Shown one piece after another: positions 9,213-56,928 of a stretch of DNA of 64,000 nucleotides. A program made the translations under genes and the position numbers. Positions within the stretch are counted from its first letter, which is position 1, and each line of letters starts with the position of its first letter. Origin of the DNA: Candidatus Phycocordibacter aenigmaticus (GTDB taxonomy: Bacteria; Patescibacteriota; Minisyncoccia; Phycocordibacterales; Phycocordibacteraceae); assembly GCA_045401115.1 (NCBI GenBank), contig CP174359.1, positions 213,691 to 277,690 of the forward strand. Direction: 5' to 3'. Under the pieces are notes generated by a model. The model saw only the letters and a list, made by a program, of their open reading frames with translations. It was not told the DNA's origin and ran no database searches.

Positions 9213-9349
9213 ATGTTGTGCTGGATATGACAGCGTCGCAAAAGAATCTACGTCTTACGTTCTACAAGATTCGCGGATTTATTTTTTTTCATATTTACAA
9301 TACATTGCGTCGATTGTTTGCTATAAAACCGTTTCCAATTACCTCAGTT

Positions 9350-9727: not shown

Positions 9728-9821
9728 GTTTTTTTTGATACGTTCTGTGTATATGAATGATGCACAGAGTGCGCATCAAAATACGTTGCGTTAATTTCTA
9801 ACAAGGTACAATAAAGATATT

Positions 9822-11042: not shown

Positions 11043-11044
11043 AA

Positions 11045-12775
11045 ATGCCCCAGTATTATCGTTACACTCGTGGTCTCAGTCTCATCGATGTAGTGGTTGG
11101 TGTTGCAATTATGACGGTGGTATTTCTTGCTATTTTCGGTGCGTTTCGTATTTCAATCGAATTGGTTTTTTCAATGAAAGCAAAAACAGGAGGTGTTGCG
11201 CTTATGACTGAACGGCTTGAACGAGTACGGGCTTTACCATACGGTTCAGTCGGCACTATCGGCGGCATTCCTCCTGGTGTGTTGGAACAAACTGAACAAA
11301 TTTCACTGAACAATATCCGATACACCATTCGCACGGTGGTGCAGTATGTAGATGCACCTGAAGATGGAGTTGGGTCTAATGATGTGAACAGTATCACTGC
11401 CGATTATAAAAAAGTGAAGGTCGAAGTGTTGTGGAACATTAAAGACTCACCGCGGTCAGTTGCCGCGGTCACACGGGTTGCACCGCCAGGTGTGGAAACA
11501 GCAGAGGACGGTGGCACTTTAGAGGTGCACGTGCGTAATGCTGCTATAGATCCATTACAGGGAGCGCAGGTTTCGATTGTGAACAACAACACTGATCCGG
11601 TTATTGATGTTTCCATACAAACAAATGATGCCGGTAGTATTACACTTCCTGGTGCACCGGCTTCAGGTGGATATGAAATTACGGTGACTAAAGACGATCA
11701 TTCAACAGCGCAAACATATAGCGCAAGCGTTGCCAACCCGAACCCGTCACCGGCACACATTGCGGTGGCATTAGAAGAAACCACGAGCATTAGTTTTTTT
11801 ATTGATCTACTTGGTTCACTTACCTTCAGCACATTCGAACCGATTACTACAGGTAGTTTTTCCGATACGTTTATTGATACAACAAAAATACTAGAAAATG
11901 CTTCCACGACTATCGCTGACGGCACGCTCATGCTCAGTGAAGCCACGGCCGGGGTATATGAAACAAGTGGTACCGCACAATCAGTGAGTATCGCGCCGGC
12001 ACTGCTCAATGAGTGGGGTGCTTTGGATTTTACACACCACACACCAACAGACACGGAAGTGGCTGTACAGGTTTATTATCATGATGGCACTGATTACGTT
12101 CCTATCGACAACACTGCTCTCCCTGGAAATGCAGCTGGTTTTTCCAATGGACCGGTTGACCTCACTTCGCTTAATACCGATATATACACTGTGTTGCGTC
12201 TTAATGCAGTATTGAATACAGCTGACACAGCGACTACTTCTGTAATTACTAACTGGTCGGTTACGTATACCCAAGGCCCGACTCCACTCCCAAATATCTC
12301 GTTTGATATTCACGGTTCTAAAACTATTGGTACTGATGGTGCTGATCCGGTATACAAATACAGTGATACGTTCACTACCAACGGACAAGGGGGGTGGGTT
12401 ATCGAGGATGTTGAGTGGGATAGCTACACGGCAGCAGTGACTGGTGCGTATGACATTGTTGAACGATGTCCGCACTCCATTGTTGTGTCACCGGGTGAAA
12501 ATCTTGAACCCTACTTTTACTTAGGTGCAAATACTGACCACTCGTTACGAGTCTACGTGAGTGACGGCGTCACCCCGATTAAAGACGCCACTATTTCAGT
12601 ATCGGCGGGTGTGGGTAGTAAAGAGAGCTCTAGTTGCGGGCAGGCATACTTTGGCGATCTCAACAATACACAGTACACCGTTACTATTGAGCATCCCGAT
12701 TTTGTAACACAAGAAGAAGTGATAACCGTGTTTGATGATGCACTTCTTGAAGTCGGATTGAGTTCACAACCGTAA
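11045..12775 (+). CDS. large prepilin-like (minor pilin/pseudopilin) protein
   Basis: 576 aa. The N-terminus RGLSLIDVVVGVAIMTV resembles the class III signal G|FTLIE with Asp at +5, followed by a TM helix and beta-rich T/S/N-rich domains. Confidence 0.6.
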   Translation: MPQYYRYTRGLSLIDVVVGVAIMTVVFLAIFGAFRISIELVFSMKAKTGGVALMTERLERVRALPYGSVGTIGGIPPGVLEQTEQISLNNIRYTIRTVVQYVDAPEDGVGSNDVNSITADYKKVKVEVLWNIKDSPRSVAAVTRVAPPGVETAEDGGTLEVHVRNAAIDPLQGAQVSIVNNNTDPVIDVSIQTNDAGSITLPGAPASGGYEITVTKDDHSTAQTYSASVANPNPSPAHIAVALEETTSISFFIDLLGSLTFSTFEPITTGSFSDTFIDTTKILENASTTIADGTLMLSEATAGVYETSGTAQSVSIAPALLNEWGALDFTHHTPTDTEVAVQVYYHDGTDYVPIDNTALPGNAAGFSNGPVDLTSLNTDIYTVLRLNAVLNTADTATTSVITNWSVTYTQGPTPLPNISFDIHGSKTIGTDGADPVYKYSDTFTTNGQGGWVIEDVEWDSYTAAVTGAYDIVERCPHSIVVSPGENLEPYFYLGANTDHSLRVYVSDGVTPIKDATISVSAGVGSKESSSCGQAYFGDLNNTQYTVTIEHPDFVTQEEVITVFDDALLEVGLSSQP

Positions 12776-12778
12776 TAT

Positions 12779-13417
12779 ATGAAAAATATACATAACGCCA
12801 CAACACATTATTTCATCACGCAGCAGTATCGTCTGTATCGGCGCGGATTAACATTGATTGAAGCGTTGGTGTGGATGAGTATTTTTTCAATTATCATGAG
12901 TGCCATCATTGGTTCGGTTATTTTCTTTTACCGTGCAAACACATCATCGCTTGAGCAAGGCTATCAAATTGAAAGTGCACGACGCGGTACCATCTCGTTA
13001 GTGCGTGACCTACGACAAGCATCATATGGTGACAACGGTGCATACCCACTTGCGCAGATTGCTTCGACATCATTAATGTTCTATTCCGACACAGATAAGG
13101 ATGATGTTATTGAACGCATCCGTTACACGTTGGATGAGAGTAATCTGTACCGGCATGTGCTTGATTCATCAGGTAATCCGCCGCGTTACACTGAAGCAGG
13201 AGCAACTACAACAGTATCGTCGCATGTACGAAACCTGGAAAGCGGGAAAGCAGTGTTTCAATATTACGATGCCGAAGGAAACGAAGTGACCGATTATACT
13301 GAGGTCGCTGAAGTACGTTCCATTGTTATTTCGTTGGTAGTAAATATCTTACCAATTCGAGCTCCTGAGGAATTCACGCTTCAATCGAGTGCCACACTCC
13401 GTAATTTACGCAAATAA
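12779..13417 (+). CDS. prepilin-type N-terminal cleavage/methylation domain protein (PilW/GspJ-like)
   Basis: N-terminus RRGLTLIEALVWMSIFSII is a canonical type IV prepilin signal with Glu+5. Confidence 0.75.
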   Translation: MKNIHNATTHYFITQQYRLYRRGLTLIEALVWMSIFSIIMSAIIGSVIFFYRANTSSLEQGYQIESARRGTISLVRDLRQASYGDNGAYPLAQIASTSLMFYSDTDKDDVIERIRYTLDESNLYRHVLDSSGNPPRYTEAGATTTVSSHVRNLESGKAVFQYYDAEGNEVTDYTEVAEVRSIVISLVVNILPIRAPEEFTLQSSATLRNLRK

Positions 13418-14885
13418 TATGTATCACACACGTCATCGCATGCATTCCAAAACGCCGTTACACACGCACGTTACTGGTGGGTACTTCGTAGTATTGGTGC
13501 TGGTGTTTTCCGCAGTATTTTTTACATTAATTTCAGCCCTCTCTGGTTATATCTTTGTACAGAAACGCGCACAACTTGCACAAGAGAATAATGAAAAAGC
13601 GTTGCATATTGCTGAAGCGGGATTGGAATATTATCGGTGGTTCTTGGCACATTTCCCGGGTGATCTACAAAACGCTACTGGCAATGAAGGGCCGTATGAA
13701 CATTCAGTGACTGACCCAGAAGGGGGAGTGCTCGGTACGTTCTCTCTCGATATTGAGGGCGAAGTATCCTGCGGCGCTTCATCAGGTATCGTTATTGAAT
13801 CAACTGGGTGGACGAAAGCATCGCCAACACACACGCGTACCGTGCGTGCGCGGTACACACAGCCAGTGGTTGCGGAATTTTCGTATATTGTGGACTCAAA
13901 TGTATGGGCGGGGGATGATCGTATTATCAATGGACCCTATCACGCCAATGGAGGTATTCGTATGGATGCGACACATAATTCACCGGTGACCAGTGGACAA
14001 GAAACATGGACCTGTTATGCCGGTGACTTTGGTTGTGGTTCCACACAAACAAAAGACGGAGTGTTCGGTGATGGTTCAAACCCTGAGTTATGGGATTTTC
14101 CCGTGCCACTTGTTGATTTTGAAGGTATTACTGTTGACATGGATGTTCTCGAAGACTACGCTCGACATGAAGGAGGGGTGTACTACGGACAAGCTGGCGG
14201 ACAATCAAACCGCCGCGGTTACCACGTGACCTTTAATGGTGATGACACTGCCACTATTAGACGCGTCACCAATACAACACCGGTATATAGTTACAATAGC
14301 GCTGATGGGTGGGGCTATGAATACAACATTATAAAAAACGAACAGTTCCTTGAAACGATCACCATTCCCGAATCATGTCCCGTGCTTTTCTTTAAAGACC
14401 GTGTATGGGTCGATGGTGTCGTATCAGGCAAGGTGGTTCTCGTTGCTGCAAACTTACAGTCTCCACAGTATGATGTTGATGTTATTTTAAACGGTAATCT
14501 TACGTATGCCACTGGTAGTATCAATGACGGAATTACTGTCATTGCCGAAGAGAATGTACTCGTTGGGCTGACCACCCCAGATGTGATGAGTATCCGCGGT
14601 GTCTTTATTGCGCAAGAAGGACGTTTTGGTCGTAACCACTACTCGACAAGTTATCTATCAAGTTCACTCGATCCGTATGTAACTCGTTCCACACTTAACA
14701 CTACCGGTACTGTTGTTTCCCGCGACCGTGTCGGTACCAAATGGGTATACTCAGATGGTTCGTTTGCGTCCGGTTATAGTCAACGGAATGATTCATATGA
14801 CTCAGGGCTTGCTGCGAATCCTCCTCCATTCACACCTTCTATCTCAAATAGTTATAAACTTCGCCTCTGGGAAGAAGTTGAGTAG
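13389..14885 (+). CDS. PilX-like minor pilin candidate (the start may be the downstream Met at 13419)
   Basis: 498 aa with an N-terminal hydrophobic helix followed by EKALHIAEAGLEYY, which resembles the PilX N-terminal motif. It is the last gene of the pilus operon. Confidence 0.5.
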   Translation: MPHSVIYANNMYHTRHRMHSKTPLHTHVTGGYFVVLVLVFSAVFFTLISALSGYIFVQKRAQLAQENNEKALHIAEAGLEYYRWFLAHFPGDLQNATGNEGPYEHSVTDPEGGVLGTFSLDIEGEVSCGASSGIVIESTGWTKASPTHTRTVRARYTQPVVAEFSYIVDSNVWAGDDRIINGPYHANGGIRMDATHNSPVTSGQETWTCYAGDFGCGSTQTKDGVFGDGSNPELWDFPVPLVDFEGITVDMDVLEDYARHEGGVYYGQAGGQSNRRGYHVTFNGDDTATIRRVTNTTPVYSYNSADGWGYEYNIIKNEQFLETITIPESCPVLFFKDRVWVDGVVSGKVVLVAANLQSPQYDVDVILNGNLTYATGSINDGITVIAEENVLVGLTTPDVMSIRGVFIAQEGRFGRNHYSTSYLSSSLDPYVTRSTLNTTGTVVSRDRVGTKWVYSDGSFASGYSQRNDSYDSGLAANPPPFTPSISNSYKLRLWEEVE

Positions 14886-15065
14886 TGTTTCCAAAAAGAG
14901 TGAATTTCTTCGTTGTCTTCAGTATTTTTCCGGTTCACCGTATCTAGCAGTACGGCTCACCATAAAAAAACCTCGACGCCTCGAACTTCATCTCTTTTTG
15001 AAACCCTTTGGAGTGCTCTTACTGCTCCTTGCATCGGTGCCTTTTTTATTTGGTACCATGGGTGC

Positions 15066-15820
15066 ATGGCAAAACCACTTATCATTGGCAATTGGAAATC
15101 ATACGTTAACTCTTTTAAAGAAGGTAAAGAACTAATGAAAGGGATTGAGAAGAAGCTCCCCGTACTCTTAAGACATATATTGTACTGTGCCCTTCGTTTC
15201 CCTTACTTGACGCACTGTCGCGTCCATACCGTGGAACACGTATACACTTCGGTGCGCAAGATATGTTTTATGAAGATGGTGCACATACCGGCGAAGTGTC
15301 ACCGCGTATGGTAAAAGATACAAAAGCAAAATATGTCATTGTCGGGCACGCAGAACGACGTGCTCTTGGTGAAACAGACGAAGTGGTTGCACGTAAGGTT
15401 GGCGCCGCACTTGATGTAAAGCTCACGCCTATTGTGGCGGTTGGTGAAACAGAGCGTGATAAAGACGGACGTTATTTTGATGAGCTTCGTACCAGTGTTC
15501 TTGATTCATTAGCACTTGTTGACGAAAAAACACTTAAAAAAATTGTTATTGCATATGAACCGGTGTGGGCTATTGGTGCATCACTTGCTCCGGATGCGCG
15601 AGTTATCCGTGAAACCATTATTTTTATTCGCAAAGTTTTAGCTGAGCGTTTTGACCGGAAAGAGGCACTGAAGGCTCGTATTATTTATGGCGGTGCGGTG
15701 ACACCTGAAACGGCACCTGAACTTATTACCGATAGTGGAGCAAATGGTTTTTTACTTGGTCGCGCGGCTGTTGATGCGGAGCAGTTTATAGCAGTAGTGA
15801 ACGCGTATCACGCGAAATAA
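15066..15820 (+). pseudogene. tpiA: triosephosphate isomerase with an apparent -1 frameshift near the C4 run at 15158-15161
   Basis: The N-terminal TIM signature MAKPLIIGNWK reads in one frame (15066 to the stop at 15312). The rest (VLCPSFPLLDALS...HFGAQDM...VGHAERR...AYEPVWAIGAS...YGGAV) reads in the -1 frame from about 15149 to 15820. Confidence 0.75.
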
Positions 15821-15825
15821 TATCT

Positions 15826-16965
15826 ATGCGCGTCTTTGACTTTAATCGTGACCTTACTGATACTCGAGTGGTGCTGCGCGCGTCACTTAACGTACCTGTT
15901 TCTGCAGGCGAGGTAGGAGACACATTTCGTATACATGAGACATTAAAAACAATTGAAATGCTTGCCGAACGTGGCGCACGTACGGTAATGCTGGCACACA
16001 TTGGTCGTGACCCAGAGACATCATTGCGTTCGGTGTGGGAGGAGCTGAAAAAACATACGAAGCGTACGATTCATTTTATACCGCAGGTTGTAGGGGAGGA
16101 GGTGGATGAAGCGATACAGACACTCGCTGCTGGTGAAGTGTTGTTACTTGAAAATGTACGAAGTATCCCTGGTGAAAAGGAGAATGATCCGGCAGTGGCT
16201 AAACAGCTTGCCACCTACGGTGAGGTGTTTATTAATGATGCGTTTGCCGACTCACATCGCGCGCACGCATCTATTGTTGGTATCCCACAATATGTACCGA
16301 GCTTTATTGGCCCGCAATTTATTCGTGAATACGAACATATAATGCCGGCGCGTACACCACTAAGTCCTTCGTTAGCGATTGTTGGTGGAGCAAAATTTGA
16401 AACAAAAGTACCGCTTGTACGGTATCTTCTCGATGCATATGACCATGTCTATATCGCCGGGGCGCTCGCTAATGATTTTTTTGCCGCACAAGGATACGCT
16501 GTCGGTGACTCATTAGTGTCCGGGGCACAGTATGCTCAAGAATTTCTCGGCCATAAAAAAATACTACTCCCGAGTGATGTAGTGGTTACAAACGGGAAAG
16601 AGTCACGAGTATGCGCACTTACTGATGTACACACTGATGAGCGTATTATTGATGTCGGTCCGACAAGTAGTGCTGATCTCGCGCCCTATATAGATTCTGC
16701 TGCGTTCATAGTATGGAATGGTCCCCTTGGTAATGTTGAAGCAGGTTTTGGTGATGCAACAAAAGCAGTCGCGCAGTACATTGCAAAAGCGTCTGGCACT
16801 TCAGTTGTCGGCGGCGGCGACACCGCAGCAGCAATTCGTGATCTCGAACTTTTTGACCAGTTTTCTTTTGTTTCAACCGCAGGCGGTGCCATGCTTGAAT
16901 TAGTGGCTCGCGGTACTCTTGTTGGTCTTGAAGCAGTTAATCAGTCTGGCCCAATGCCTCTTTAA
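15826..16965 (+). CDS. pgk: phosphoglycerate kinase
   Basis: 379 aa with PGK motifs RASLNVP, LLENVR, NDAFADSHRAHAS and GGGD. Confidence 0.9.
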   Translation: MRVFDFNRDLTDTRVVLRASLNVPVSAGEVGDTFRIHETLKTIEMLAERGARTVMLAHIGRDPETSLRSVWEELKKHTKRTIHFIPQVVGEEVDEAIQTLAAGEVLLLENVRSIPGEKENDPAVAKQLATYGEVFINDAFADSHRAHASIVGIPQYVPSFIGPQFIREYEHIMPARTPLSPSLAIVGGAKFETKVPLVRYLLDAYDHVYIAGALANDFFAAQGYAVGDSLVSGAQYAQEFLGHKKILLPSDVVVTNGKESRVCALTDVHTDERIIDVGPTSSADLAPYIDSAAFIVWNGPLGNVEAGFGDATKAVAQYIAKASGTSVVGGGDTAAAIRDLELFDQFSFVSTAGGAMLELVARGTLVGLEAVNQSGPMPL

Positions 16966-17317
16966 TGAGCGCTTGGTTTTCCTCAAACGCATTTTTATCT
17001 CCGGTCGCCTCGTTTGGATTAGGGAAGAGCCATACATGTGCATGTGCTACCTCTTCACCCATAATTTTAAGAAATACATTGTCGGTACCAAAAGTTCCAC
17101 GTAGTGCCTGAGCGAGTTGCTGGGCTCTCTTCATATATTCTGTATATTCATCAGTTGGCATGTCCCATACGAAACGGTAGTGTTTTTTTGGGATAATCTG
17201 AATATGGCCAGGCGATTCTGGATTAATATCCATAAATGCTTTGTAATCATTATCCTCATATACTGAGGAGCTTGGTACTGTACCTGCCGCGATATTACAA
17301 AAAATACAATCAGTCAT
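16937..17317 (-). CDS. HIT family hydrolase
   Basis: Starts MTDCIFCNI and carries the histidine triad AHAHVWLFP. The track ORF extends upstream to 17491, but the HIT-typical start is at 17317. Confidence 0.75.
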   Translation of the reverse strand: MTDCIFCNIAAGTVPSSSVYEDNDYKAFMDINPESPGHIQIIPKKHYRFVWDMPTDEYTEYMKRAQQLAQALRGTFGTDNVFLKIMGEEVAHAHVWLFPNPNEATGDKNAFEENQALIKEALGQTD

Positions 17318-17345
17318 ATAGGTATATGCTACCATCCTTCTATAC

Positions 17346-19025
17346 ATGTCCGACCAGCACCCGCTTATCTCACTTCTTCTCGGTAGGCGTAATATCCCCG
17401 AGAACGAACATGAACAATTTTTATCTCCAGCGTATACGGATCGTCCTGATCCGTTTTTAATGAAAGATATGTCTGTAGCGGTTGCGCGCATCGCTGAGGT
17501 AATTGAAAAAGGAGAAGCTATTGCCGCGTGGACCGACTACGATTGTGATGGTATTCCTGCTGGGGCACTTCTGGCTGATGTGTTTGCTGCACTCGAATAT
17601 CCTCTGCGTTCATATATCCCTGACAGAAGTGAGGGATACGGACTTAATACCGAAGGTATTCAAAAATTAAAAGACGAAGGTATCTCACTTATCATTACTG
17701 CAGATGTGGGTATTACTAATGTCGCGGAGGTTGCATATGCCCAAACGCAGGGCATTGATGTCATTGTTACTGACCATCACTTACCGCAAGAAAAACTCCC
17801 ACCCGCTGTTGCTGTTTTGAATCCTCACCGCACTGACTGCGCGTATCCATATAAAGAATTATGCGGCACCGGAGTTGCTTTTAAATTAACCGAAGCACTT
17901 TTCACACATCTTCGTGAGAAGAGAGATGTGCCGAACGCGTGCGGCATAGGACAAGAGAAGTGGCTCCTCGATTTAGTAGCACTTGCAACAGTTGCTGACA
18001 TGGTGCCATTAACAGGAGAAAACAGAACATTAGTGCAGTATGGATTACTGGTGTTAAAGAAGGGGAGGCGAAAAGGACTTCGTGCATTATTGGAACGCAT
18101 GCGTATTCCGCTCACGCACGTAACGGAAGATGACTTCTCATTTTCTATCGCACCAAAAATAAATGCGGCAAGTCGCATGGCGTCACCTTTATTAGGACTT
18201 GAACTACTGACCACGAATGACGAAGTGCGCGCCACAGAACTTGCGAAAGCGTTAATCAAATTAAACGACGGAAGAAAACTAGAAGGCGCGCGTGTTGCCA
18301 AAGAAGTCAAACGTCGAGTTGAAGGCGCTCCACTTGAATCAGTAGTGGTCTTAGGACACTCAAGTTGGAAGCCGGCATTGCTTGGTATTGCAGCAACCAA
18401 TATTGTTGAAACATATGGACGCACGACTTGTTTATGGGGGAAAGAGGGCGATTTAATAAAAGGTTCATGTCGATCAGATGGGTCAGTAAACATCGTGTCG
18501 TTGCTTGGACACTGCAACGATGTATTCGAAGACTTCGGCGGGCATGAAGCGTCGGGTGGTTTTTCTTTAACACAGGAGGCAATTCATGCATTACCTGAGA
18601 TACTGCAAAAAGCGTACACGGCTGTGGCGTCACAAGAAGAAAAAAAAGAATCTACAGTAGTTGCCGACACAACGCTTTCACTGTCTGAAGTGTCTGTACG
18701 TACGTACCGCGCGCTTCGCGCGCTCGCACCGTTTGGTGTTGGTAATGTAAAACCAGTATTTGAAATTACTAATGTACGAGTTGAAAAGATGCAGTGGTTT
18801 GGAAAAAGCAAAGAACATGTACGCCTCACGCTGAGCGATATGCAGGGGACGACGCGTGATGCAATTGGTTTCTTTGCAAACCGTGCATCATTTCGCCACA
18901 CGCTTGAGTTACTTTCAGATGGTGACATTGTGACGGTGTACGCTGCAGTAGAACAATCATTCTTTGCTGGTAGAAACGAACTCCGTCTCCGTCTTGAATC
19001 TATTACTCTCAAAACCGAACGATAA
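17346..19025 (+). CDS. recJ: single-stranded-DNA-specific exonuclease RecJ
   Basis: 559 aa with DHH motifs DYDCDG, ITADVGI, TDHH and a DHHA1 region (GGHEASGG). Confidence 0.85.
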   Translation: MSDQHPLISLLLGRRNIPENEHEQFLSPAYTDRPDPFLMKDMSVAVARIAEVIEKGEAIAAWTDYDCDGIPAGALLADVFAALEYPLRSYIPDRSEGYGLNTEGIQKLKDEGISLIITADVGITNVAEVAYAQTQGIDVIVTDHHLPQEKLPPAVAVLNPHRTDCAYPYKELCGTGVAFKLTEALFTHLREKRDVPNACGIGQEKWLLDLVALATVADMVPLTGENRTLVQYGLLVLKKGRRKGLRALLERMRIPLTHVTEDDFSFSIAPKINAASRMASPLLGLELLTTNDEVRATELAKALIKLNDGRKLEGARVAKEVKRRVEGAPLESVVVLGHSSWKPALLGIAATNIVETYGRTTCLWGKEGDLIKGSCRSDGSVNIVSLLGHCNDVFEDFGGHEASGGFSLTQEAIHALPEILQKAYTAVASQEEKKESTVVADTTLSLSEVSVRTYRALRALAPFGVGNVKPVFEITNVRVEKMQWFGKSKEHVRLTLSDMQGTTRDAIGFFANRASFRHTLELLSDGDIVTVYAAVEQSFFAGRNELRLRLESITLKTER

Positions 19026-19062
19026 ATCACGCGGTTTTTCAGGGGATGATAGAATTGGACGC

Positions 19063-19473
19063 ATGACTATTACTATTTATACTGACGGCGGCGCACGTGG
19101 TAATCCTGGCCCTGCCGGTGCGGGTGCGGTTATTTATCAAGAAGAAAAAGAAGTGGCTACGGTTTCAGAATTTTTAGGGGTTCAAACAAATAACTGGGCT
19201 GAATACGAAGCATTAATTCGCGCACTTGAGGTCGCACGAGAAACGCTCGGTGATCCTCTGCCGCATGTGCGTGTTTATTTAGATTCAGAGTTGATCGTTA
19301 AACAACTTTCAGGTGAATATCGCGTTAAAGATGCTGCACTTAAAAAACAGTATGCACGTGTTATTGGTCTCGTGGAGGAGTCATTTCCTACGGTAAGTTT
19401 TACACATGTGCGCCGTGAAAAAAATACTCGCGCTGACGAACTTGCCAACCAAGCAATGGATGCACATACGTAA
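19063..19473 (+). CDS. rnhA: ribonuclease HI
   Basis: Starts MTITIYTDGGARGNPGPAG with the DEDD catalytic residues in RNase H-like spacing. The internal ATG at 19063 is preferred over the track start at 18964. Confidence 0.8.
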   Translation: MTITIYTDGGARGNPGPAGAGAVIYQEEKEVATVSEFLGVQTNNWAEYEALIRALEVARETLGDPLPHVRVYLDSELIVKQLSGEYRVKDAALKKQYARVIGLVEESFPTVSFTHVRREKNTRADELANQAMDAHT

Positions 19474-19509
19474 GGTTTCACGTTATTAAAAAATCGCTAC
19501 ACTGAAAAA

Positions 19510-20859
19510 GTGCAGCGTGTGTATACAAAAATAATTTTCTTTATATCGTTCTGTGTCATTGTCGGCGCGGCGGTGTATTCACTTACCACCCCTATCAAGG
19601 ACGAAGTCTTGGGTGTTTTTGAAAACAAAAACGTTTCATTACATGGTGTGGTGATACGTGATCCCGATATACGTGAAAACGCTATTCGGCTTACCGTTGC
19701 ACCAAAAACCGTAAACGGTCTATCAGTATCGAACGCAAAAAATGTGCTGGTGGTCACGAATCGATTCACTGAGGTGAGTTATGGCGATTATATTCTAGTC
19801 GAAGGGAAGTTACGCAAACCTGAACCATTCGAAACTGATTCCGGTCGCACATTCGACTACCCGCGGTATCTTTTTGCACACTCCATTTTTTATTCTATTC
19901 CATTTGCGGATGTGTCAGTGCAAAGTGTCGGACACGGTAATCAAATTTTCAGTGTTCTTTTCACAATGAAACATGCATTGATTCGCGGCATTGAACGTGC
20001 GCTTCCTGAACCGCATGCGGCACTTGCTGCAGGGCTTTTGCTGGGCGAAAAACAATCGCTCGGCAATCAGCTTTATGAAACGTTTATTGCATCAGGGTTG
20101 GTGCATATTATTGTTCTCTCAGGGTACAACGTTGCACTTGTTATTAACTCGGTGTTGTTTTTGACACTTCGTGTTTTGCCGCGCACCACAGGGTATGTCG
20201 TTGCGGTGGTGTTTGTATTAGGTTTCGCTATACTGACGGGCGCTTCTGAAACAACTGTTCGCGCCACTATCATGGCACTTTTTATGATGATTGCGCGCGT
20301 GCTACACCGTCCGGCAGTGGCGCTGCGTGGGCTACTTCTGGCCGCGGTCATAATGGCACTGTGGAATCCTTTTTTAGTACTGTACGACCTTTCGTTTCAG
20401 CTTTCAGTGCTCGCTACATTTGGACTTATTGTACTAAGTGATCCAATAAGTAAAAGGCTTGTATATATACCAAAACGTTTTGGATTACGTGAAATTACCG
20501 CAACGACACTCGCAACTCAAGTTGCAGTATTGCCACTTCTTGTACTCTCTATCGGCGCGGTGTCGCTTACATTTCTTCCGGCAAATGTACTCGTGTTGCC
20601 GTTGGTGCCACTCGCCATGTTGTTTTCTTTTATTGCAGCGCTTATCGCACTCACACTTCCGACAGTAGTGTTTCCGTTCGCGACTTTTGCGTACGGAGTG
20701 TTGGCGTACATAATGAATGTCTCTATATTTTTTGGAACACTACCGTTTGCGCTCATTACCATTCCATCGCATGTAACGTGGATGGTACTTTCAATTATTG
20801 TAGTGACGTACAGTGTGTATGGAGTTCACGCACTTAGGCGTTATAACGTTCAGAAATAA
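19510..20859 (+). CDS. comEC: ComEC/Rec2 competence channel, membrane part (DUF4131 plus competence domain, no MBL domain)
   Basis: 449 aa polytopic protein with the ComEC core motif GLVHIIVLSGYNVALV. Confidence 0.75.
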   Translation: MQRVYTKIIFFISFCVIVGAAVYSLTTPIKDEVLGVFENKNVSLHGVVIRDPDIRENAIRLTVAPKTVNGLSVSNAKNVLVVTNRFTEVSYGDYILVEGKLRKPEPFETDSGRTFDYPRYLFAHSIFYSIPFADVSVQSVGHGNQIFSVLFTMKHALIRGIERALPEPHAALAAGLLLGEKQSLGNQLYETFIASGLVHIIVLSGYNVALVINSVLFLTLRVLPRTTGYVVAVVFVLGFAILTGASETTVRATIMALFMMIARVLHRPAVALRGLLLAAVIMALWNPFLVLYDLSFQLSVLATFGLIVLSDPISKRLVYIPKRFGLREITATTLATQVAVLPLLVLSIGAVSLTFLPANVLVLPLVPLAMLFSFIAALIALTLPTVVFPFATFAYGVLAYIMNVSIFFGTLPFALITIPSHVTWMVLSIIVVTYSVYGVHALRRYNVQK

Positions 20860-21382
20860 TAGCGCCGTTGAGGTTATTAAACCACGCATCAATGTACTGC
20901 GCTTTTTCTGCTGGTGTGTAGTCCACCATAAATGCATGTTCCCACATATCGAGTGCGAGAAGAGTGGTGGTGTCATTGAGCTGGCCGAGTTCATGATCAG
21001 AAACCCAATGGACAAATAGGTTTTCATTTGTATTATCTTTTGAAACGAGTGTCCATCCAATGCCACGCATTGAAGCGGTACGTTTTATATCATCTTTGAG
21101 TGCGGCTATCGGATCTGGTAGAGGAGTAGGTTCACCTTCCCACTGGCTAAAGTAGTGTTCATGCATGCGCATACCGTTCCACTCAAAACCGAGTCGACGT
21201 GTCACTTCTGCTAAAGCATACGCGTTTTTTTCAGGATCTTGCTTTAGGTCTTCTTGCACTTCAGTGAGTAGGTTTACGTGTTTTACGTAGCCTTCATATA
21301 ATTTAATATGTACATCGAGTTGTTTTTGAGAAATACCATCTAGGTTGCCAAAAGAAAATTGTTGCGCGGAATAGTGTTTCAT
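20834..21382 (-). CDS. sodA: Fe/Mn superoxide dismutase
   Basis: 182 aa with metal-ligand contexts HHxxHH-like, DMWEHAF and YxxxW, typical of the SOD Fe/Mn family. Confidence 0.8.
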   Translation of the reverse strand: MKHYSAQQFSFGNLDGISQKQLDVHIKLYEGYVKHVNLLTEVQEDLKQDPEKNAYALAEVTRRLGFEWNGMRMHEHYFSQWEGEPTPLPDPIAALKDDIKRTASMRGIGWTLVSKDNTNENLFVHWVSDHELGQLNDTTTLLALDMWEHAFMVDYTPAEKAQYIDAWFNNLNGAIISERYNA

Positions 21383-21492
21383 AATATTGGATATTTATTT
21401 TTTAATAACGAGCATTCCGAAGTTTTTCAGAATTCTTATATTTCCAAGTGTAGCATGATGCTGTTTATTTTATCTGTGCGTACAATGAAGAG

Positions 21493-22323
21493 ATGATGCG
21501 CATCGCAGTACTCGGTCTATTGGTCGTAATAAATATTATTATTTTTACGTTTCCTACCCCAAATGGACTGTCGGTTTCGTTTTTTGATGTGGGTCAGGGT
21601 GATGCAATATTTATTGAAGGTCCACGTGGTGCGCAGGTACTTATCGACGGCGGGAGTACACGAGCAGTATTGCGTCGTTTGAATGAACGAATGCCGTTTT
21701 TTGATCGTGCACTCGAAGCAGTGGTTGCTACGCATCCCGATCAGGATCATATTGGAGGTTTAGTTGATGTTGTGCAGCGGTATTCTGTTGGAGTGTGGTT
21801 TGACTCTGGTGCGAAGAATGACACAGCAGTGTATCGAGCGCTTTGGAGAGCGCAACAAGGTCAACAACAAAACATACACCGTGTGGTCACTCCTGTGCGT
21901 ATCATGCTTGGAGGCACTGCGTATGCGGATGTATTGTTTCCAAATCAACCACTTAACAATATTTCAAGCAACGCATCGTCAATTATCATTCGGGTTGTGT
22001 ATGGTGACACCTCATTTCTTTTCACAGGAGATGCGCCGGCTTCTGTTGAGCGGGTATTGGTAGCGATGTATGGCAGTACGCTCAATAGCACAGTATTAAA
22101 GGTAGGACACCATGGCTCAAAAACATCATCAGACCCGCAGTTTATAGATACGGTACAACCTGAAGCGGTGGTGTACTCCAGAGGGTGTGACAATAGATAC
22201 GGTCATCCGCATCCGGATGTTGTTGAGCGTTTCAATGCACGCGGTATACAAACGTATGACACGTGTGAAGACGGCACCGTTACTTTTCATTCAAACGGAA
22301 GCGCAGTATCTGTAAAGAAATAG
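21493..22323 (+). CDS. ComEC-type metallo-beta-lactamase domain protein (the separated C-terminal part of ComEC)
   Basis: Motifs FFDVGQGDA, THPDQDHIGG, KVGHHGS and YGHPH match the ComEC MBL domain. An N-terminal TM helix is present. Confidence 0.75.
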   Translation: MMRIAVLGLLVVINIIIFTFPTPNGLSVSFFDVGQGDAIFIEGPRGAQVLIDGGSTRAVLRRLNERMPFFDRALEAVVATHPDQDHIGGLVDVVQRYSVGVWFDSGAKNDTAVYRALWRAQQGQQQNIHRVVTPVRIMLGGTAYADVLFPNQPLNNISSNASSIIIRVVYGDTSFLFTGDAPASVERVLVAMYGSTLNSTVLKVGHHGSKTSSDPQFIDTVQPEAVVYSRGCDNRYGHPHPDVVERFNARGIQTYDTCEDGTVTFHSNGSAVSVKK

Positions 22324-22361
22324 GGCTCCATATCGGTATGCTTTTTATATGTTCGGACTTG

Positions 22362-22394
22362 GAAAAGAAAAACCCGGCAGTTCCGGGTTTTTCT
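22362..22394. terminator. bidirectional terminator hairpin (ACCCGGCAGTTCCGGGT)
   Basis: GC hairpin with flanking A and T runs between the comEC-MBL gene and rpmB. Confidence 0.55.
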
Positions 22395-22395
22395 T

Positions 22396-22641
22396 TTATT
22401 TTACAATTCCTGCTTTCTTGAGTGTTGCGTAGGCGCCACGCTTTGCAATAGTTTTGAGTGCCTTTGCAGAAAGAGTGAGAGAGAATGTTTTGTCGAGCTC
22501 AGGAACATATACCTTTCGCTTTTGAAGGTTTGCATGACGGCGCACTTTCCCACAAGGATTGTACTGCGTCGCACGAGTTCTGTTGGAATAGCGCCCTCCT
22601 ACGAGAGACCTCTTTCCAGTTACTGCACATTCTTTTGACAT
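22396..22641 (-). CDS. rpmB: 50S ribosomal protein L28
   Basis: 81 aa basic protein with C-terminal LSAKALKTIAKRG, like bL28. Confidence 0.7.
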   Translation of the reverse strand: MSKECAVTGKRSLVGGRYSNRTRATQYNPCGKVRRHANLQKRKVYVPELDKTFSLTLSAKALKTIAKRGAYATLKKAGIVK

Positions 22642-22704
22642 AGTGATTGGTACTGTACCACAGCGTTTTTTTGCTGTCTATATTATAAAAATACGTATTC
22701 TGTG

Positions 22705-23412
22705 TCAGGTTTTTGGTACACGCTCTAGATACACACTCGCTGTTCGACGTTTCCATGCTTTCCCACGCTTATTAATATGTTTATGAGAACGTTCCAGTTT
22801 ATGTATCGTAAAGTACGGTTCATAAAAATCATAGATATCAGACTCCCACGAAACATATTCAGGTATTTTAATCTCCGGATGTATATATGTTCCTTCTTCG
22901 GTGCCCGGAAACTCCTTAAGGAGTGCTTCGGCATTTCTATCGCCATCACGCAGAAAAGTTTTAAAGAAAAGCCATCCGCCGGGCTTGAGAACGCGAAAGA
23001 TTTCAGCGCGAAGCGCTTCACGCTCTGCACGATTCAGCACATGTGAGGCCATCATGTCGAGTGCAATAGTTACTGATTCATCAGGAAGCGGGATTGGTTC
23101 AGAAAGAGAGCGTTTTTCAAATTCAAGCGGTAACCCTTCAGCCGCTGTTCGCGCTGCTTTTATGGCCTCATCAGAAAGGTCATACCCAAAACCGTGCATA
23201 CCAAACTCGCGTGCAAGGAATATAGCGTTCCTGCCGTTACCGCACCCAACATCAACCAGTTTTGTGGTGACATTTAATAATTGTTTTCCGCTCTTTCTTT
23301 GTAGGAAACGAGTGAATTTTTCCAAGTCCTCAGAATGAGTGTCAGACATCGCTAAATGTGAAGCCTGTGCGTATTCTTTTTCCCAGAAATTTTTCTGTTT
23401 TTTCCGTGGCAT
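22705..23412 (-). CDS. class I SAM-dependent methyltransferase
   Basis: Motif I VDVGCGNGRNA and a post-I acidic residue. The start is taken at MPRKKQKN (23412) rather than the track start at 23649. Confidence 0.65.
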   Translation of the reverse strand: MPRKKQKNFWEKEYAQASHLAMSDTHSEDLEKFTRFLQRKSGKQLLNVTTKLVDVGCGNGRNAIFLAREFGMHGFGYDLSDEAIKAARTAAEGLPLEFEKRSLSEPIPLPDESVTIALDMMASHVLNRAEREALRAEIFRVLKPGGWLFFKTFLRDGDRNAEALLKEFPGTEEGTYIHPEIKIPEYVSWESDIYDFYEPYFTIHKLERSHKHINKRGKAWKRRTASVYLERVPKT

Positions 23413-23434
23413 GGCAATGAATAGATAGTGGTTT

Positions 23435-24172
23435 TTATTGCTTAGAGCGCCATTCGTAAAAGGCAATAGCTGCCGAAGTGCCGGCGTTAAGTGATTCAGC
23501 GTTCTCACTAATAGGAATGCGCAGTACCGCATCACAGTGCTCACTGGTTTTTGCACGAATGCCTTGCGCTTCATTTCCAACAATAAATACTGAGTTACCG
23601 GTAAAATCTTCATCGCGGATAGTACGCGCGCCGTCCCCTGCAAGGCCATATACCCAGAAGCGTTTGTCTTTGAGCTCTCGCACTGTTTGATTTACATTGC
23701 CGATGGCAATAAGAGGAATACGAAAAGCGGTCCCTACTGAGGCCTTTATCACCGAACTAGTTATTTGTGCTTGTCGGTCTTTAGGAATAAGCACACCATG
23801 CATACCGAAGGCAGCAGCTGAGCGAATAATAGAGCCAACGTTTTGTGGATCTTGTACTTCACCAAGGAGTACAAGTCCAACGCCTTTTTCTTGAGCAAGT
23901 GTTTCCTCAAGAGAGGGGAGGTCGGTCATAAGTTCGTCGAGATTCACGAGTGCTGCCACGTGTTGATGTACTGCTTCGTCGCCAATACGTTTTGAGATTT
24001 TCTGCTCATCAAACCGCTCTCTAAAAATACCCTTATTTTTAGCGCGCGAATCAAGTTCCGGATATTGTAGGGGGTCAAGGAATACTTTTTCCACTACGTC
24101 AGGCCGATACGAGAGTGCTTCTGCGACTGGGTGTTTCCCATAGATGTATATTTTATTCATTGTTCTTGACAT
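23435..24172 (-). CDS. rlmB: SpoU/TrmH-family RNA 2'-O-methyltransferase (RlmB-like)
   Basis: 245 aa with an N-terminal SpoU_sub_bind-like region and SPOUT motifs LLGEVQDPQNVGSIIRSA, VFIVGNEAQG and LNAGTSAAIAFYE. Confidence 0.8.
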   Translation of the reverse strand: MSRTMNKIYIYGKHPVAEALSYRPDVVEKVFLDPLQYPELDSRAKNKGIFRERFDEQKISKRIGDEAVHQHVAALVNLDELMTDLPSLEETLAQEKGVGLVLLGEVQDPQNVGSIIRSAAAFGMHGVLIPKDRQAQITSSVIKASVGTAFRIPLIAIGNVNQTVRELKDKRFWVYGLAGDGARTIRDEDFTGNSVFIVGNEAQGIRAKTSEHCDAVLRIPISENAESLNAGTSAAIAFYEWRSKQ

Positions 24173-56814: not shown

Positions 56815-56888
56815 CCACCCGTAGCTCAGTTGGTAGTAGCACCGAGCTTATATCTCGGCGGTCCCTGGTTCGAGTCCAGGCGGGTGGA
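56815..56888 (+). tRNA. tRNA-Ile, anticodon UAU (AUA-decoding), no encoded CCA
   Basis: Cloverleaf with acceptor CCACCCG/CGGGTGG, U8 and A9, anticodon stem CCGAG/CTCGG, loop CTTATAT, T-arm CCTGG-TTCGAGT-CCAGG and discriminator A. Confidence 0.65.
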
Positions 56889-56928
56889 CATGTAAATAAA
56901 AGCAGTGCGTTTGCACTGCTTTTTTGAA

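What the first reader, a model, noticed from the sequence alone, without database searches (positions are those of the whole stretch)
19510..22323. ComEC split into a membrane-channel gene and a separate MBL-domain gene, with a convergent superoxide dismutase gene between them
The gene at 19510-20859 has the DUF4131 and competence-domain core of ComEC but stops before the metallo-beta-lactamase domain. A separate ORF at 21493-22323 has its own N-terminal TM helix plus all ComEC-type MBL motifs (FFDVGQGDA, THPDQDHIGG, KVGHHGS, YGHPH). A minus-strand Fe/Mn SOD gene (20834-21382) lies between them and overlaps the end of the first piece. Either comEC has been fissioned by insertion or rearrangement and functions as two polypeptides, or the nuclease part is independently membrane anchored.
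Basis: partly seen in the sequence, partly recalled or inferred. Interest (0 to 1): 0.5.

Follow-up and report, generated by a model that had tools for sequence, protein, structure and literature searches.

The report
ComEC naturally split into two genes
In this tiny-genome (Patescibacteria) bacterium and many relatives, the DNA-uptake protein ComEC is encoded as two separate genes, a membrane channel and a membrane-anchored DNA-cutting enzyme, so these bacteria have kept a nuclease part they were thought to lack.

Summary
ORF 19510-20859(+) encodes the OB fold and channel of ComEC. ORF 21493-22323(+) encodes one TM helix plus a ComEC-type metallo-beta-lactamase (MBL) nuclease with every catalytic residue. 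ORF 20834-21382(-) is an intact-looking Fe/Mn SOD, overlapping the channel gene's 3' end by 26 nt. Joined end to end, the two ComEC pieces align in one unbroken stretch to fused ~790-aa ComECs. The break lies in the short cytoplasmic loop between the last two TM helices (TM10/TM11), so the nuclease keeps TM11 as its anchor. It is neither an assembly error nor recent: all 120 nearest homologues of each piece are likewise separate proteins. ComEC-N / SOD(-) / MBL recurs in over 20 species-level Patescibacteria genomes. Other lineages have the two genes adjacent with 4-31 nt overlaps, or separated by different genes. So the fission probably predates the SOD intercalation. The MBL gene appears to be its own transcription unit: a -10-like hexamer 6 nt before the ATG (conserved in 16/24 loci) and a downstream hairpin terminator. 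That the two polypeptides reassemble is inferred, not shown. The literature records only that CPR ComEC lacks the MBL fusion. Verdict: real, ancient variant of a known system; moderate interest.

The parts
19510..20859 (+). comEC-N: the channel subunit. One N-terminal TM helix (about residues 2-26), an OB fold (DUF4131, about 41-139), and the Competence channel domain ending after the helix equivalent to TM10 (420-448) with a basic tail HALRRYNVQK. An alternative GTG start lies at 19519.
   Evidence: Pfam PF13567 + PF03772; TIGR00361 positions 80-402; aligns to residues 88-450 of solved full-length ComEC 30bt_A, E 5e-21; AF2 model pLDDT 90.3; hydropathy.
20834..21382 (-). Fe/Mn superoxide dismutase gene, convergent with comEC-N (26-nt 3' overlap) and divergent from the MBL gene. 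It is a passenger between the two comEC halves, not a ComEC part.
   Evidence: Sod_Fe_C E 6e-15; aligns to Fe-SOD 1coj over residues 12-181 with His, His, Asp, His ligand positions conserved; the same position in relatives.
21383..21492 (.). Divergent SOD/MBL spacer (110 bp). It contains the -10-like hexamer TACAAT at 21481-21486, 6 nt upstream of the MBL ATG. This is the putative promoter of a leaderless or near-leaderless MBL mRNA.
   Evidence: Sequence; TAnnnT at 6-7 nt from the start codon in 16 of 24 loci with a non-adjacent MBL gene, against a background of about 2.5 (max 6) per equivalent window, and 1 of 7 in operonic adjacent MBL genes. The generic sigma-70 scan found nothing in the spacer itself.
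21493..22323 (+). comEC-C: the nuclease subunit. An N-terminal signal-anchor helix (residues 2-22, homologous to ComEC TM11) followed by the ComEC-type MBL nuclease domain, with H81-x-D83-x-D85-H86, D180, H206/H207, S209 and H238.
   Evidence: TIGR00361 positions 421-663, E 8e-39; 30bt_A residues 511-789, E 3e-35; AF2 pLDDT 92 and best fold match 9ic4 (ComEC nuclease domain), E 5e-26, TM 0.82; catalytic residues invariant in 25 homologues, mapped to the mutagenised residues of PMC12455585.
22364..22396 (.). A 14-bp hairpin flanked by an A-tract and a U-tract. It is a putative bidirectional intrinsic terminator shared by the MBL gene (+) and the convergent L28 gene (-).
   Evidence: RNA fold dG -25.3 kcal/mol, z -3.1 against shuffles; only sub-threshold Rfam hits pile up there.

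Best explanation
This is an ancient, lineage-wide gene fission of comEC in Patescibacteria (CPR), not a local accident. The ancestral three-domain ComEC was cut in the short cytoplasmic loop between its last two transmembrane helices (TM10 and TM11). [quoted passage not shown] Gene 2 (21493-22323) keeps TM11 as an N-in/C-out signal anchor plus the Mn-dependent MBL nuclease, so the nuclease is still displayed on the outer face of the membrane as in intact ComEC. The inferred mechanism has three steps. The two polypeptides meet in the membrane. The OB fold and nuclease frame the channel entrance. One DNA strand is degraded while the other is threaded into the cell, for transformation and/or nucleotide supply. 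After the fission the two genes were at first adjacent and translationally coupled, as they still are in several lineages. In the lineage of this window an Fe/Mn SOD gene came to lie between them on the opposite strand. The nuclease gene then became a monocistronic unit with its own -10 element 6 nt before the start codon (leaderless mRNA) and its own terminator. Shown: homology, colinearity, break position, intact catalytic residues, and conservation of the split and of the synteny. Inferred: membrane orientation, promoter use, physical reassembly and DNA-uptake function.
For: (1) Complementary coverage of the ComEC model: 80-402 and 421-663 of TIGR00361, and 88-450 and 511-789 of solved ComEC 30bt_A. 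(2) The concatenated N+C aligns in one continuous stretch across the junction to fused 740-845-aa ComECs, e.g. query 8-719 to P0241 53-783 at 37% identity. The junction alignment puts the break in the basic TM10-TM11 loop in every split lineage, with nothing lost. (3) The topology is consistent with the cryo-EM description: 11 TMs, a periplasmic MBL on a flexible linker after TM11, TM11 mobile or absent in one protomer, and a small OB-MBL interface (PMC13539106). (4) All nuclease residues tested by mutagenesis are present and invariant. The best fold match is the ComEC nuclease domain. (5) The 120 nearest homologues of each half are all separate proteins. Synteny RecJ-RNaseH-ComEC_N-SOD(-)-MBL-L28(-) is found in relatives down to 37% MBL identity. 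In a rough NJ tree the split MBLs form one clade with no fused member, next to fused Chloroflexota ComECs. (6) Adjacent split genes have 4-, 8-, 26- and 31-nt overlaps in different frames, or a single in-frame stop. (7) A positionally conserved -10-like hexamer and a terminator hairpin. (8) The OB betaIV-betaV loop, which contacts the MBL domain in intact ComEC, aligns to window residues 104-117. It is among the most conserved segments of the split channel proteins: P104, F107, T109, F115 and Y117 invariant; D110, G112 and R113 at 90% or more.
Against: No direct evidence that the two proteins associate. A mirror-tree test gave no excess co-variation of N and C beyond species divergence: partial r 0.03, no better than control gene pairs, with 16 genomes and low power. 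In some genomes no ComEC-N lies within 10 kb of the MBL gene (L027, L040, L041, L045; about 8.4 kb available upstream in L032), so linkage is not obligatory. In vitro, ComEC nuclease activity is higher when the OB fold is on the same chain (PMC12455585), so a split might cost efficiency. The NJ tree is rough: two adjacent-type loci (L016, L031) nest among SOD-type loci, so the order and number of rearrangements is not settled. Promoter and terminator are sequence predictions only. Taxon labels of many loci are as deposited and unverified.
Confidence: 0.72

Rival explanations
1. Autonomous surface nuclease. After the fission the MBL protein became an independent, membrane-anchored extracellular DNase that does not dock on the channel subunit. 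It would be analogous in role to pneumococcal EndA. It would degrade environmental DNA for nucleotide scavenging, while ComEC-N acts alone like naturally MBL-less ComECs.
For: Its own promoter-like element and terminator. It is unlinked from ComEC-N in some genomes. There is no mirror-tree signal. The OB-MBL interface is small and weak and TM11 is mobile even in intact ComEC. ComECs lacking an MBL domain exist in transformable species (PMC6299819). ComEC-like stand-alone MBLs exist in Firmicutes and archaea with no ComEC-N within 10 kb.
Against: Adjacency and translational coupling persist in several lineages. Synteny with ComEC-N is kept across deep divergence even with a gene in between. TM11 itself is retained rather than replaced by an arbitrary anchor, with the same Pro-rich exit as in intact ComEC. 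The OB loop that contacts the nuclease is strongly conserved.
Confidence: 0.2
2. The SOD gene caused the split. An intact comEC in the ancestor of this lineage was broken by insertion or rearrangement of the SOD gene.
For: SOD lies exactly between the halves in more than 20 genomes. Two adjacent-type loci (L016, L031) nest among SOD-type loci in the rough NJ tree, so secondary loss of SOD cannot be excluded.
Against: The same break point occurs without SOD, as overlapping adjacent genes, in Moranbacteria-, Giovannonibacteria- and Parcubacteria-labelled genomes that branch outside the SOD group. Other lineages have different genes in the gap: VTT/DedA and RNase III. No fused form appears among the nearest 120 homologues of either half. 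Méheust et al. found the fusion in only six CPR genomes (PMC6744442). Re-creating a 4-nt ATGA overlap by deleting SOD is unlikely.
Confidence: 0.06
3. Artefact or decay. The split is an assembly or frameshift error, or the two ORFs are remnants of a pseudogenised comEC.
For: The window does contain one probable frameshift elsewhere, in TIM at a C-run near 15158, so its sequence is not flawless.
Against: A whole, intact 549-nt gene on the other strand separates the halves. The same arrangement occurs in many independent assemblies from different samples. Both ORFs are full length, with invariant functional residues and confident folds. The family shows strong sequence conservation.
Confidence: 0.01
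4. The second ORF is an unrelated MBL-fold hydrolase (for example of glyoxalase II, phosphorylcholine esterase or defence-system MBL type) that only happens to lie near comEC.
For: Weaker matches exist to Avs1a (63 bits), an AHM-type beta-lactamase (60 bits) and Pce by fold (E 4e-17).
Against: ComEC is the best match by every measure: 133 bits to TIGR00361 including the pre-domain TM helix; E 3e-35 to ComEC 30bt_A against 5e-5 to glyoxalase II; Foldseek E 5e-26 to the ComEC nuclease domain. It is also colinear with fused ComECs across the junction.
Confidence: 0.01

Closest known systems
Canonical three-domain ComEC/Rec2 (e.g. Bacillus subtilis ComEC; Neomoorella carbonis ComEC cryo-EM structure, PDB 30bt; Pfam PF13567 + PF03772 + PF00753)
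   Same: The same three modules in the same order (OB fold, channel, TM11, MBL nuclease). It is colinear residue for residue across the junction. The catalytic H-x-D-x-D-H, Asp and HHGS residues are the same. The aromatic residues of the OB alpha-I helix are the same (window Y117 and Y120, aligned to the YxxY of 30bt).
   Different: It is encoded by two genes and hence two polypeptides, cut in the TM10-TM11 cytoplasmic loop. In this window the genes are separated by an opposite-strand SOD gene and probably transcribed separately. There is only one TM helix before the OB fold, rather than the three described for most ComECs. Neither piece alone reaches the TIGR00361 cut-off: 70.7 and 133.3 bits against 190.
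CPR/Patescibacteria ComEC family without an MBL fusion (fam000603 of Méheust et al. 2019, PMC6744442) and the 'DC' (DUF4131 + Competence) profile of Pimentel & Zhang 2018 (PMC6299819)
   Same: Piece 1 is exactly this kind of protein. Those papers report that the ComEC-MBL fusion is essentially absent from CPR (six genomes only), and that DC-type ComECs are common.
   Different: Those surveys scored only the domains on the Competence-bearing polypeptide. They treated the MBL domain as absent or lost, and 'separate', 'split' and 'adjacent' do not occur in Pimentel & Zhang. Here the missing half is shown to be retained as a neighbouring or nearby gene that still carries ComEC's TM11.
Competence systems that use a separate membrane nuclease (Streptococcus pneumoniae EndA; from my own knowledge and reference 55 of PMC12455585)
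   Same: A membrane-bound nuclease that is a different polypeptide from the channel degrades DNA at the cell surface during uptake.
   Different: EndA belongs to a different nuclease family and is not derived from ComEC. Here the separate nuclease is the ComEC MBL domain itself.
Stand-alone ComEC-like MBL proteins of Firmicutes, Chloroflexota and archaea (e.g. loci L053 Bacillus cereus, L059 Halobacterium, L070 Hadesarchaea)
   Same: They are MBL domains of the ComEC type encoded without a Competence domain.
   Different: They are 300-500 aa, have no ComEC-N within 10 kb, fall in other branches of the MBL tree, and occur in taxa, Bacillus for example, whose characterised members have an intact ComEC (my own knowledge; not checked in these genomes). 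They are probably paralogues with other roles, not the missing half of a split ComEC.

Membership tests
ComEC/Rec2 DNA-internalisation protein | Competence transmembrane channel domain (PF03772) | tested here: met
   Piece 1 residues 176-434, E 1e-46, 160 bits against a cut-off of 23. Aligns to solved ComEC 30bt_A residues 88-450.
ComEC/Rec2 DNA-internalisation protein | N-terminal OB fold (DUF4131, PF13567) preceding the channel | tested here: met
   Piece 1 residues 8-130, E 2e-14, 53.9 bits against a cut-off of 31.6. AF2 model shows beta strands at 41-139. Weak fold matches are to OB-containing proteins and the ComEC OB NMR structure.
ComEC/Rec2 DNA-internalisation protein | C-terminal MBL nuclease domain with H-x-[HD]-x-D-H, bridging Asp and HHGS residues | tested here: met
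   Piece 2 has H81, D83, D85, H86, D180, H206/H207 and S209. All are invariant in 25 homologues and correspond to the mutagenised residues of M. glycerini ComEC. Fold match to 9ic4: E 5e-26, TM 0.82.
ComEC/Rec2 DNA-internalisation protein | All three domains on one polypeptide (the TIGR00361 equivalog architecture; cut-off 190 bits) | tested here: not met
   There are two ORFs with an opposite-strand gene between them. The pieces score 70.7 and 133.3 bits, each below the cut-off. It is therefore filed as a split variant, not as a canonical member.
ComEC/Rec2 DNA-internalisation protein | Nuclease domain on the extracytoplasmic face, tethered by the last TM helix (TM11) | tested here: inconclusive
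   Piece 2 residues 4-22 align to the TM segment 511-530 of 30bt_A, directly before the MBL domain. Piece 1 ends with a basic tail and piece 2 begins M-M-R, which fits a cytoplasmic loop by the positive-inside rule. Orientation was not measured.
ComEC/Rec2 DNA-internalisation protein | Required for DNA uptake or transformation; degrades the non-translocated strand | not testable with these tools
   The organism is uncultivated. The only experimental CPR data are for Saccharibacteria comEC (PMC10633639).
Two-subunit (split) ComEC: the proposed variant | The two polypeptides physically associate | tested here: inconclusive
The mirror-tree test was null. Indirect support comes from conserved linkage or coupling and a conserved OB loop.
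Fe/Mn superoxide dismutase (the intervening gene) | Sod_Fe_N + Sod_Fe_C domains with His, His, Asp, His metal ligands | tested here: met
   Sod_Fe_C 55.7 bits against a cut-off of 20.9. Sod_Fe_N scores only 17.5 against 27. Alignment to 1coj over residues 12-181 keeps the ligand positions: H in DVHIKL, H in RMHEHYF, and D and H in DMWEHAF.

The most novel reading that the evidence does not exclude
In these ultra-small bacteria the ComEC nuclease has been freed from the channel. It would be an autonomous, separately regulated surface DNase, transcribed as a leaderless mRNA from a very compact bidirectional promoter shared with the superoxide dismutase gene. DNA degradation for nucleotide foraging would then be regulated apart from DNA translocation, and perhaps together with the oxidative-stress response. 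That would be a functional re-wiring of the competence machinery specific to CPR bacteria.
Probability: 0.15. Interest if true: 0.65.

Novelty: new variant of a known kind. Interest (0 to 1): 0.45.

Why it matters
Three reasons.

(1) It corrects a reading in the literature. CPR/Patescibacteria ComEC has been described as lacking the nuclease (MBL) domain, and 'DC'-type ComECs have been scored as domain losses. At least in this large group, the nuclease is retained in trans, with ComEC's own last TM helix as its anchor. Inferences about how these nucleotide-auxotrophic bacteria take up and process DNA should include it.

(2) It is a natural experiment for ComEC mechanism. Evolution has cut the protein exactly at the TM10-TM11 loop. 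This fits the cryo-EM observation that TM11 and the nuclease are only loosely attached, and predicts that covalent linkage is dispensable. That can be tested by splitting ComEC at the same loop in a tractable species. It also offers a naturally separate, membrane-anchored nuclease subunit for biochemistry.

(3) For annotation, the ~275-aa 'MBL fold metallo-hydrolase' genes of Patescibacteria should be recognised as the ComEC C-terminal subunit, and domain-architecture surveys should look for separately encoded partners.

Tried and rejected
(a) Structure prediction of the reconstituted protein, using 26 paired N+C concatenations from the same loci (alignment A2).

(b) An unpaired block alignment of the concatenation with single-piece homologues (A3). 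MAFFT placed the MBL homologues over the wrong region, so I discarded it. A model guided by fused homologues would resemble ComEC almost by construction, so I did not pursue this.

(c) Foldseek of the channel-piece model against the PDB. It returned only weak OB-fold hits, because that library copy (releases to April 2026) lacks the full-length ComEC entries that the sequence-level PDB search does find.

(d) Generic sigma-70 promoter scan. It found no site in the 110-bp SOD-MBL spacer, only + strand sites inside the SOD gene at 21009-21036 and 21273-21302. The positional analysis of -10-like hexamers was more informative.

(e) Mirror-tree co-evolution test of N against C. Null.

(f) Rfam scan of 19000-23000 and an inverted-repeat search in the spacer. 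Nothing above threshold.

(g) Taxonomy lookup for 'Patescibacteria group bacterium UBA2163', and a contig lookup for P0121. Neither is on record.

(h) Cluster-member lookup of the nearest fused ComECs. It gave no organism names. Contig size and neighbouring genes indicate non-CPR hosts.

(i) Literature searches for any description of a split ComEC in CPR. None was found in the searchable library. This is absence of evidence only, because subscription papers are not covered.

(j) The identical 26-nt length of the comEC-N/SOD overlap here and of the N/C overlap in L016 and L038. I judge this a coincidence, because overlaps and gaps vary widely among loci.
Full report
**1. What is in the sequence.**

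- ORF 19510-20859 (+, 449 aa) matches the Pfam Competence domain (E 1e-46) and DUF4131, the ComEC OB fold (E 2e-14).
- ORF 21493-22323 (+, 276 aa) matches the metallo-beta-lactamase (MBL) superfamily. It contains the quoted motifs FFDVGQGDA, THPDQDHIGG, KVGHHGS and YGHPH.
- ORF 20834-21382 (-, 182 aa) matches the C-terminal domain of Fe/Mn superoxide dismutases (E 6e-15). Its N-terminal domain is below Pfam's cut-off, but an alignment to the Aquifex Fe-SOD 1coj keeps all four metal-ligand positions.
- The SOD gene is convergent with the first gene and overlaps its last 26 nt. It is divergent from the MBL gene across a 110-bp spacer.

The window is 100% identical at protein level to a ComEC-family protein of 'Patescibacteria group bacterium UBA2163', on a 721-kb contig.

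**2. The two plus-strand genes are two halves of one ComEC.**

- Against NCBI's 663-position ComEC/Rec2 model (TIGR00361), piece 1 covers positions 80-402 and piece 2 covers 421-663. ComEC is the best NCBIfam match of piece 2: 133 bits, against 63 for the next family.
- Against the sequences of solved structures, piece 1 residues 42-399 align to residues 88-450 of full-length ComEC 30bt_A (E 5e-21). Piece 2 residues 4-270 align to residues 511-789 of the same chain (E 3e-35). The best non-ComEC hit is glyoxalase II at 5e-5.
- An AlphaFold2 model of piece 2 (pLDDT 92) has a single N-terminal helix followed by an MBL fold. Its best PDB match is the crystal structure of the ComEC nuclease domain, 9ic4 (Foldseek E 5e-26, TM 0.82). 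The next match, the phosphorylcholine esterase Pce, is well behind at 4e-17.
- I concatenated the two window proteins and searched 1.84 billion representative proteins with HMMER. The query aligned in one continuous stretch across the junction to many fused ComECs of 740-845 aa. For example, query 8-719 aligned to residues 53-783 of P0241 at 37% identity.

That criterion is not met.

**3. Where the cut is.**

Hydropathy and the AF2 model show that piece 1 ends with a long helix (420-448) and a basic tail, HALRRYNVQK. Piece 2 begins M-M-R followed by one TM helix at residues 2-22.

The cryo-EM paper on full-length ComEC (PMC13539106) describes:
- 11 TM helices;
- a small two-strand sheet flanking two non-spanning helices between TM9 and TM10;
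- a short cytoplasmic helix between TM10 and TM11;
- the MBL domain in the periplasm, on a flexible linker after TM11.

The model of piece 1 shows the same small sheet (strands 350-352 and 415-417) followed by one last helix. So piece 1 stops after TM10, and the helix of piece 2 is TM11. That helix aligns to 30bt_A 511-530, immediately before the nuclease domain.

A multiple alignment of split pairs and fused proteins puts the break inside this short, basic loop in every split lineage. Fused proteins have about 15-20 residues there, and nothing is missing. The cut therefore preserves topology: a cytoplasmic C-terminus for the channel subunit and an N-in/C-out signal anchor for the nuclease. 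No signal-peptidase (AXA-type) or lipobox motif follows the helix. Instead there is the same Pro-rich exit as in intact ComEC: FPTP here and YPP in 30bt.

The orientation itself is inferred, not measured.

**4. It is conserved, so it is neither an error nor recent.**

- The 120 best homologues of piece 2 in a 5.8-billion-protein database are all 261-346 aa with only MBL domains. Sources call them 'MBL fold metallo-hydrolase' or 'competence protein ComEC', and the named ones are from Patescibacteria.
- The 120 best homologues of piece 1 are all 349-529 aa with DUF4131 + Competence (one with Competence only) and no MBL domain.
- Three relatives on long contigs, at 51-59% MBL identity, have the order RecJ - RNase H - ComEC_N - SOD(-) - MBL - L28(-) - methyltransferase(-) - M50 - S12 - S7 - EF-G, as in the window. 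One or more extra genes sit in places.

A scan of one genome per species returned 80 loci, which I classified by tblastn:

| Class | Arrangement | Loci |
|---|---|---|
| i | Split, with SOD on the opposite strand between the halves | More than 20 loci, down to 37% MBL identity, labelled Kaiser-, Nomura-, Campbell-, Taylorbacteria, Minisyncoccia or Paceibacterota (many labelled 'Saccharibacteria'; labels as deposited, unverified) |
| ii | Split, with the halves directly adjacent | L016, L031, L035, L037, L038, L042, L050 |
| iii | Split, with a different gene in between | A VTT/DedA-type membrane protein in the Yonathbacteria-type group (checked in L021); RNase III in L044 |
| iv | Split and unlinked | No ComEC-N in the upstream DNA held (10 kb in L027, L040, L041, L045; about 8.4 kb in L032) |
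| v | Fused ComEC, 700-970 aa | Chloroflexota, Longimicrobium and others |
| vi | Stand-alone ComEC-like MBLs | Firmicutes and archaea, with no channel gene nearby |

In the adjacent class the genes overlap by 4 nt (ATGA; L031, L050), 8 nt (L042), 26 nt (L016, L038) or 31 nt (L035). In L037 they are separated by a single in-frame stop plus 3 nt. These junctions are lineage-specific and typical of translational coupling.

In a rough neighbour-joining tree of the MBL domains, all Patescibacteria stand-alone MBLs form one clade that contains no fused member and lies next to the fused Chloroflexota clade. The nearest fused proteins found by the exhaustive search sit on a 4.4-Mb contig and next to a SpoVS gene, so they are not from CPR genomes.

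The simplest history has three steps:
1. A fission early in this part of Patescibacteria.
2. Adjacent coupled genes.
3. Lineage-specific intercalation of other genes. SOD is the one fixed in the window's lineage.

The 3' overlap of comEC-N with SOD is 26 nt in the window and its two closest relatives. Elsewhere it ranges from a 73-nt overlap to gaps of several kb.

**5. Is the nuclease still a nuclease, and is it expressed on its own?**

Mutagenesis of the M. glycerini ComEC nuclease domain showed that H598, D602, H603, D700 and H725 are needed for activity, with D600 and S728 contributing (PMC12455585). In the alignment these correspond to window H81, D83, D85, H86, D180, H206/H207 and S209. 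All are invariant in 25 diverse homologues.

Because an opposite-strand gene separates the halves, the MBL gene cannot be an ordinary operon partner of comEC-N. Three observations bear on its transcription.

- The generic promoter scan found nothing in the spacer.
- I aligned 24 loci in which the MBL gene is not adjacent to comEC-N at their start codons. In 16 of them a TAnnnT hexamer lies 6-7 nt upstream of the start codon, and 12 are at exactly 6 nt. The background is about 2.5 loci (maximum 6) per equivalent 4-offset window. Only 1 of 7 adjacent, coupled MBL genes has it. In the window it is TACAAT at 21481-21486, with the ATG at 21493. That spacing suggests transcription starting at or next to the start codon, giving a leaderless mRNA.
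- In several relatives the whole divergent SOD-MBL spacer is only 20-30 nt, which implies a very compact bidirectional promoter region.

Downstream, a 14-bp hairpin at 22364-22396 is flanked by A- and U-tracts (dG -25.3 kcal/mol, z -3.1). It has the form of a bidirectional intrinsic terminator shared with the convergent L28 gene.

All of this is sequence inference.

**6. How it most likely works, and the main rival.**

The best-supported reading is a two-subunit ComEC. The channel/OB subunit and the TM11-anchored nuclease subunit would reassemble in the membrane, so that the OB fold and nuclease frame the channel entrance as in the intact protein. Several points support it:

- The cut is at the one place where the intact protein is already loosely connected. 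TM11 is absent from one protomer in the cryo-EM map, the MBL domain moves as a rigid body on a flexible linker, and it is held only by a small interface with the OB betaIV-betaV loop.
- That OB loop aligns to window residues 104-117, PEPFETDSGRTFDY. It is among the most conserved parts of the split channel proteins: P104, F107, T109, F115 and Y117 are invariant, and D110, G112 and R113 are at 90% or more in 66 sequences.
- TM11 itself has been kept, rather than replaced by an arbitrary anchor.
- Linkage or coupling persists in many lineages.

Against it:
- There is no direct evidence of association.
- My mirror-tree test gave no N-C co-variation beyond species divergence (partial r 0.03).
- Some genomes have the genes unlinked.
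- In vitro the nuclease works better with the OB fold on the same chain.

The main rival, at about 0.2, is that the nuclease has become an autonomous surface DNase. Artefact, pseudogene and unrelated-MBL readings are effectively excluded.

**7. Comparison with what is known, and novelty.**

- Méheust et al. [quoted passage not shown]
- Pimentel & Zhang 2018 catalogued DUF4131+Competence ('DC') ComECs and modelled gains and losses of the MBL domain. They scored only the Competence-bearing polypeptide.
- The two 2025-2026 structural papers mention orthologues that lack the MBL domain, without noting separately encoded ones.

That CPR ComEC is unfused is therefore known. Some pipelines already label the ~275-aa proteins 'competence protein ComEC'. 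In the searchable literature I found no description of the following:
- the separate gene as the retained C-terminal half of ComEC, with TM11 as its anchor;
- the position of the cut;
- the conserved synteny.

I file this as a new variant of a known kind. It is not a canonical ComEC, because the single-polypeptide criterion is tested and not met, but by homology it should work like one.

**8. Limits.**

- The tree is neighbour-joining on about 250 columns and is not robust in detail.
- The genome scan kept only the best 80 of at least 590 confirmed matches, so I did not establish how far the split extends across Patescibacteria classes.
- Organism labels are as deposited.
- Start codons in relatives were chosen by alignment to the window proteins. 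Some of the 8 loci without the -10-like hexamer may simply have mis-assigned starts; L006 and L048 have one at 9 nt.
- The function of both proteins in DNA uptake is inferred from homology. The only experimental CPR evidence is that comEC is needed for natural transformation in a Saccharibacterium (PMC10633639).

Noticed in passing
window 15060-15820: The triosephosphate isomerase gene appears frameshifted. The N-terminus (MAKPLIIGNWK...KKLP) is in one frame (within ORF 14913-15314). The rest (...IVLCPSFPLL...GAQD...GAHTGEVS, Pfam TIM positions 65-244) is in another (ORF 15263-15820). The switch is near a C-run at about 15158. It could be a sequencing or assembly error, a pseudogene or a programmed frameshift.
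   Followed up: partly
window 7476-14885: A type IV pilus gene cluster lies 5-12 kb upstream of comEC-N on the same strand. It has a PilB-type ATPase (7476-9212), a PilC-type platform protein (9822-11042), a 576-aa protein with a CarboxypepD_reg domain (11045-12775), a protein with the N-terminal methylation (pilin) motif (12779-13417) and a 498-aa ORF with no Pfam match (13389-14885). Pilus, RecJ, RNase H and both ComEC halves are thus all within about 15 kb.
   Followed up: partly
window 19510-19600 (piece 1 residues 1-30): The channel subunit has only one TM helix before the OB fold (hydropathy 8-26; AF2 helix 2-26). The cryo-EM paper says most ComECs have three, with H. pylori as an exception. 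The alignment to 30bt_A starts at its residue 88. This is a further minimisation of ComEC in the lineage.
   Followed up: partly
window 56815-56889: ARAGORN calls a tRNA-Ile with anticodon TAT (UAU). To my knowledge most bacteria read AUA with a lysidine-modified CAU tRNA, so a UAU tRNA-Ile may say something about AUA decoding in this organism.
   Followed up: no
L001 5976-6000, L002 5977-6000, L008 9943-9967, L061 9982-10003 (and window 21383-21492): In several relatives the divergent SOD-MBL spacer is only 20-30 nt. It carries a shared motif GGAGTGTACCAT. Its reverse complement reads TGGTACACT, which is extended -10-like for the SOD gene. This suggests a very compact bidirectional promoter giving two leaderless or near-leaderless mRNAs.
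   Followed up: partly
L021 9185-9775 (-), also L014, L015, L024; L044 7128-7844 (+): Other lineages have different genes between the two comEC halves. In the Yonathbacteria-type group it is a VTT/DedA-family membrane protein on the opposite strand (Pfam-checked in L021 only). In L044 it is an RNase III gene on the same strand. The gap between the halves seems to be a recurrent site of gene intercalation.
   Followed up: partly
window 16937-17491 (-), 18964-19473 (+), 22705-23649 (-): Several mechanically listed ORFs are longer than the called genes in relatives: HIT protein 184 against 134-139 aa, RNase H 169 against 137-138 aa, methyltransferase 314 against 229-234 aa. Their apparent overlaps with neighbours (for example HIT with RecJ) therefore probably reflect over-extended starts rather than real overlaps.
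   Followed up: no
window 19495-19517: A 9-bp hairpin (CGCTACACT...AGTGCAGCG) lies in the 36-nt gap between RNase H and comEC-N and overlaps the GTG start at 19510. The scan called it terminator-like on the minus strand only. Its role, if any, in comEC-N expression is unknown.
   Followed up: no
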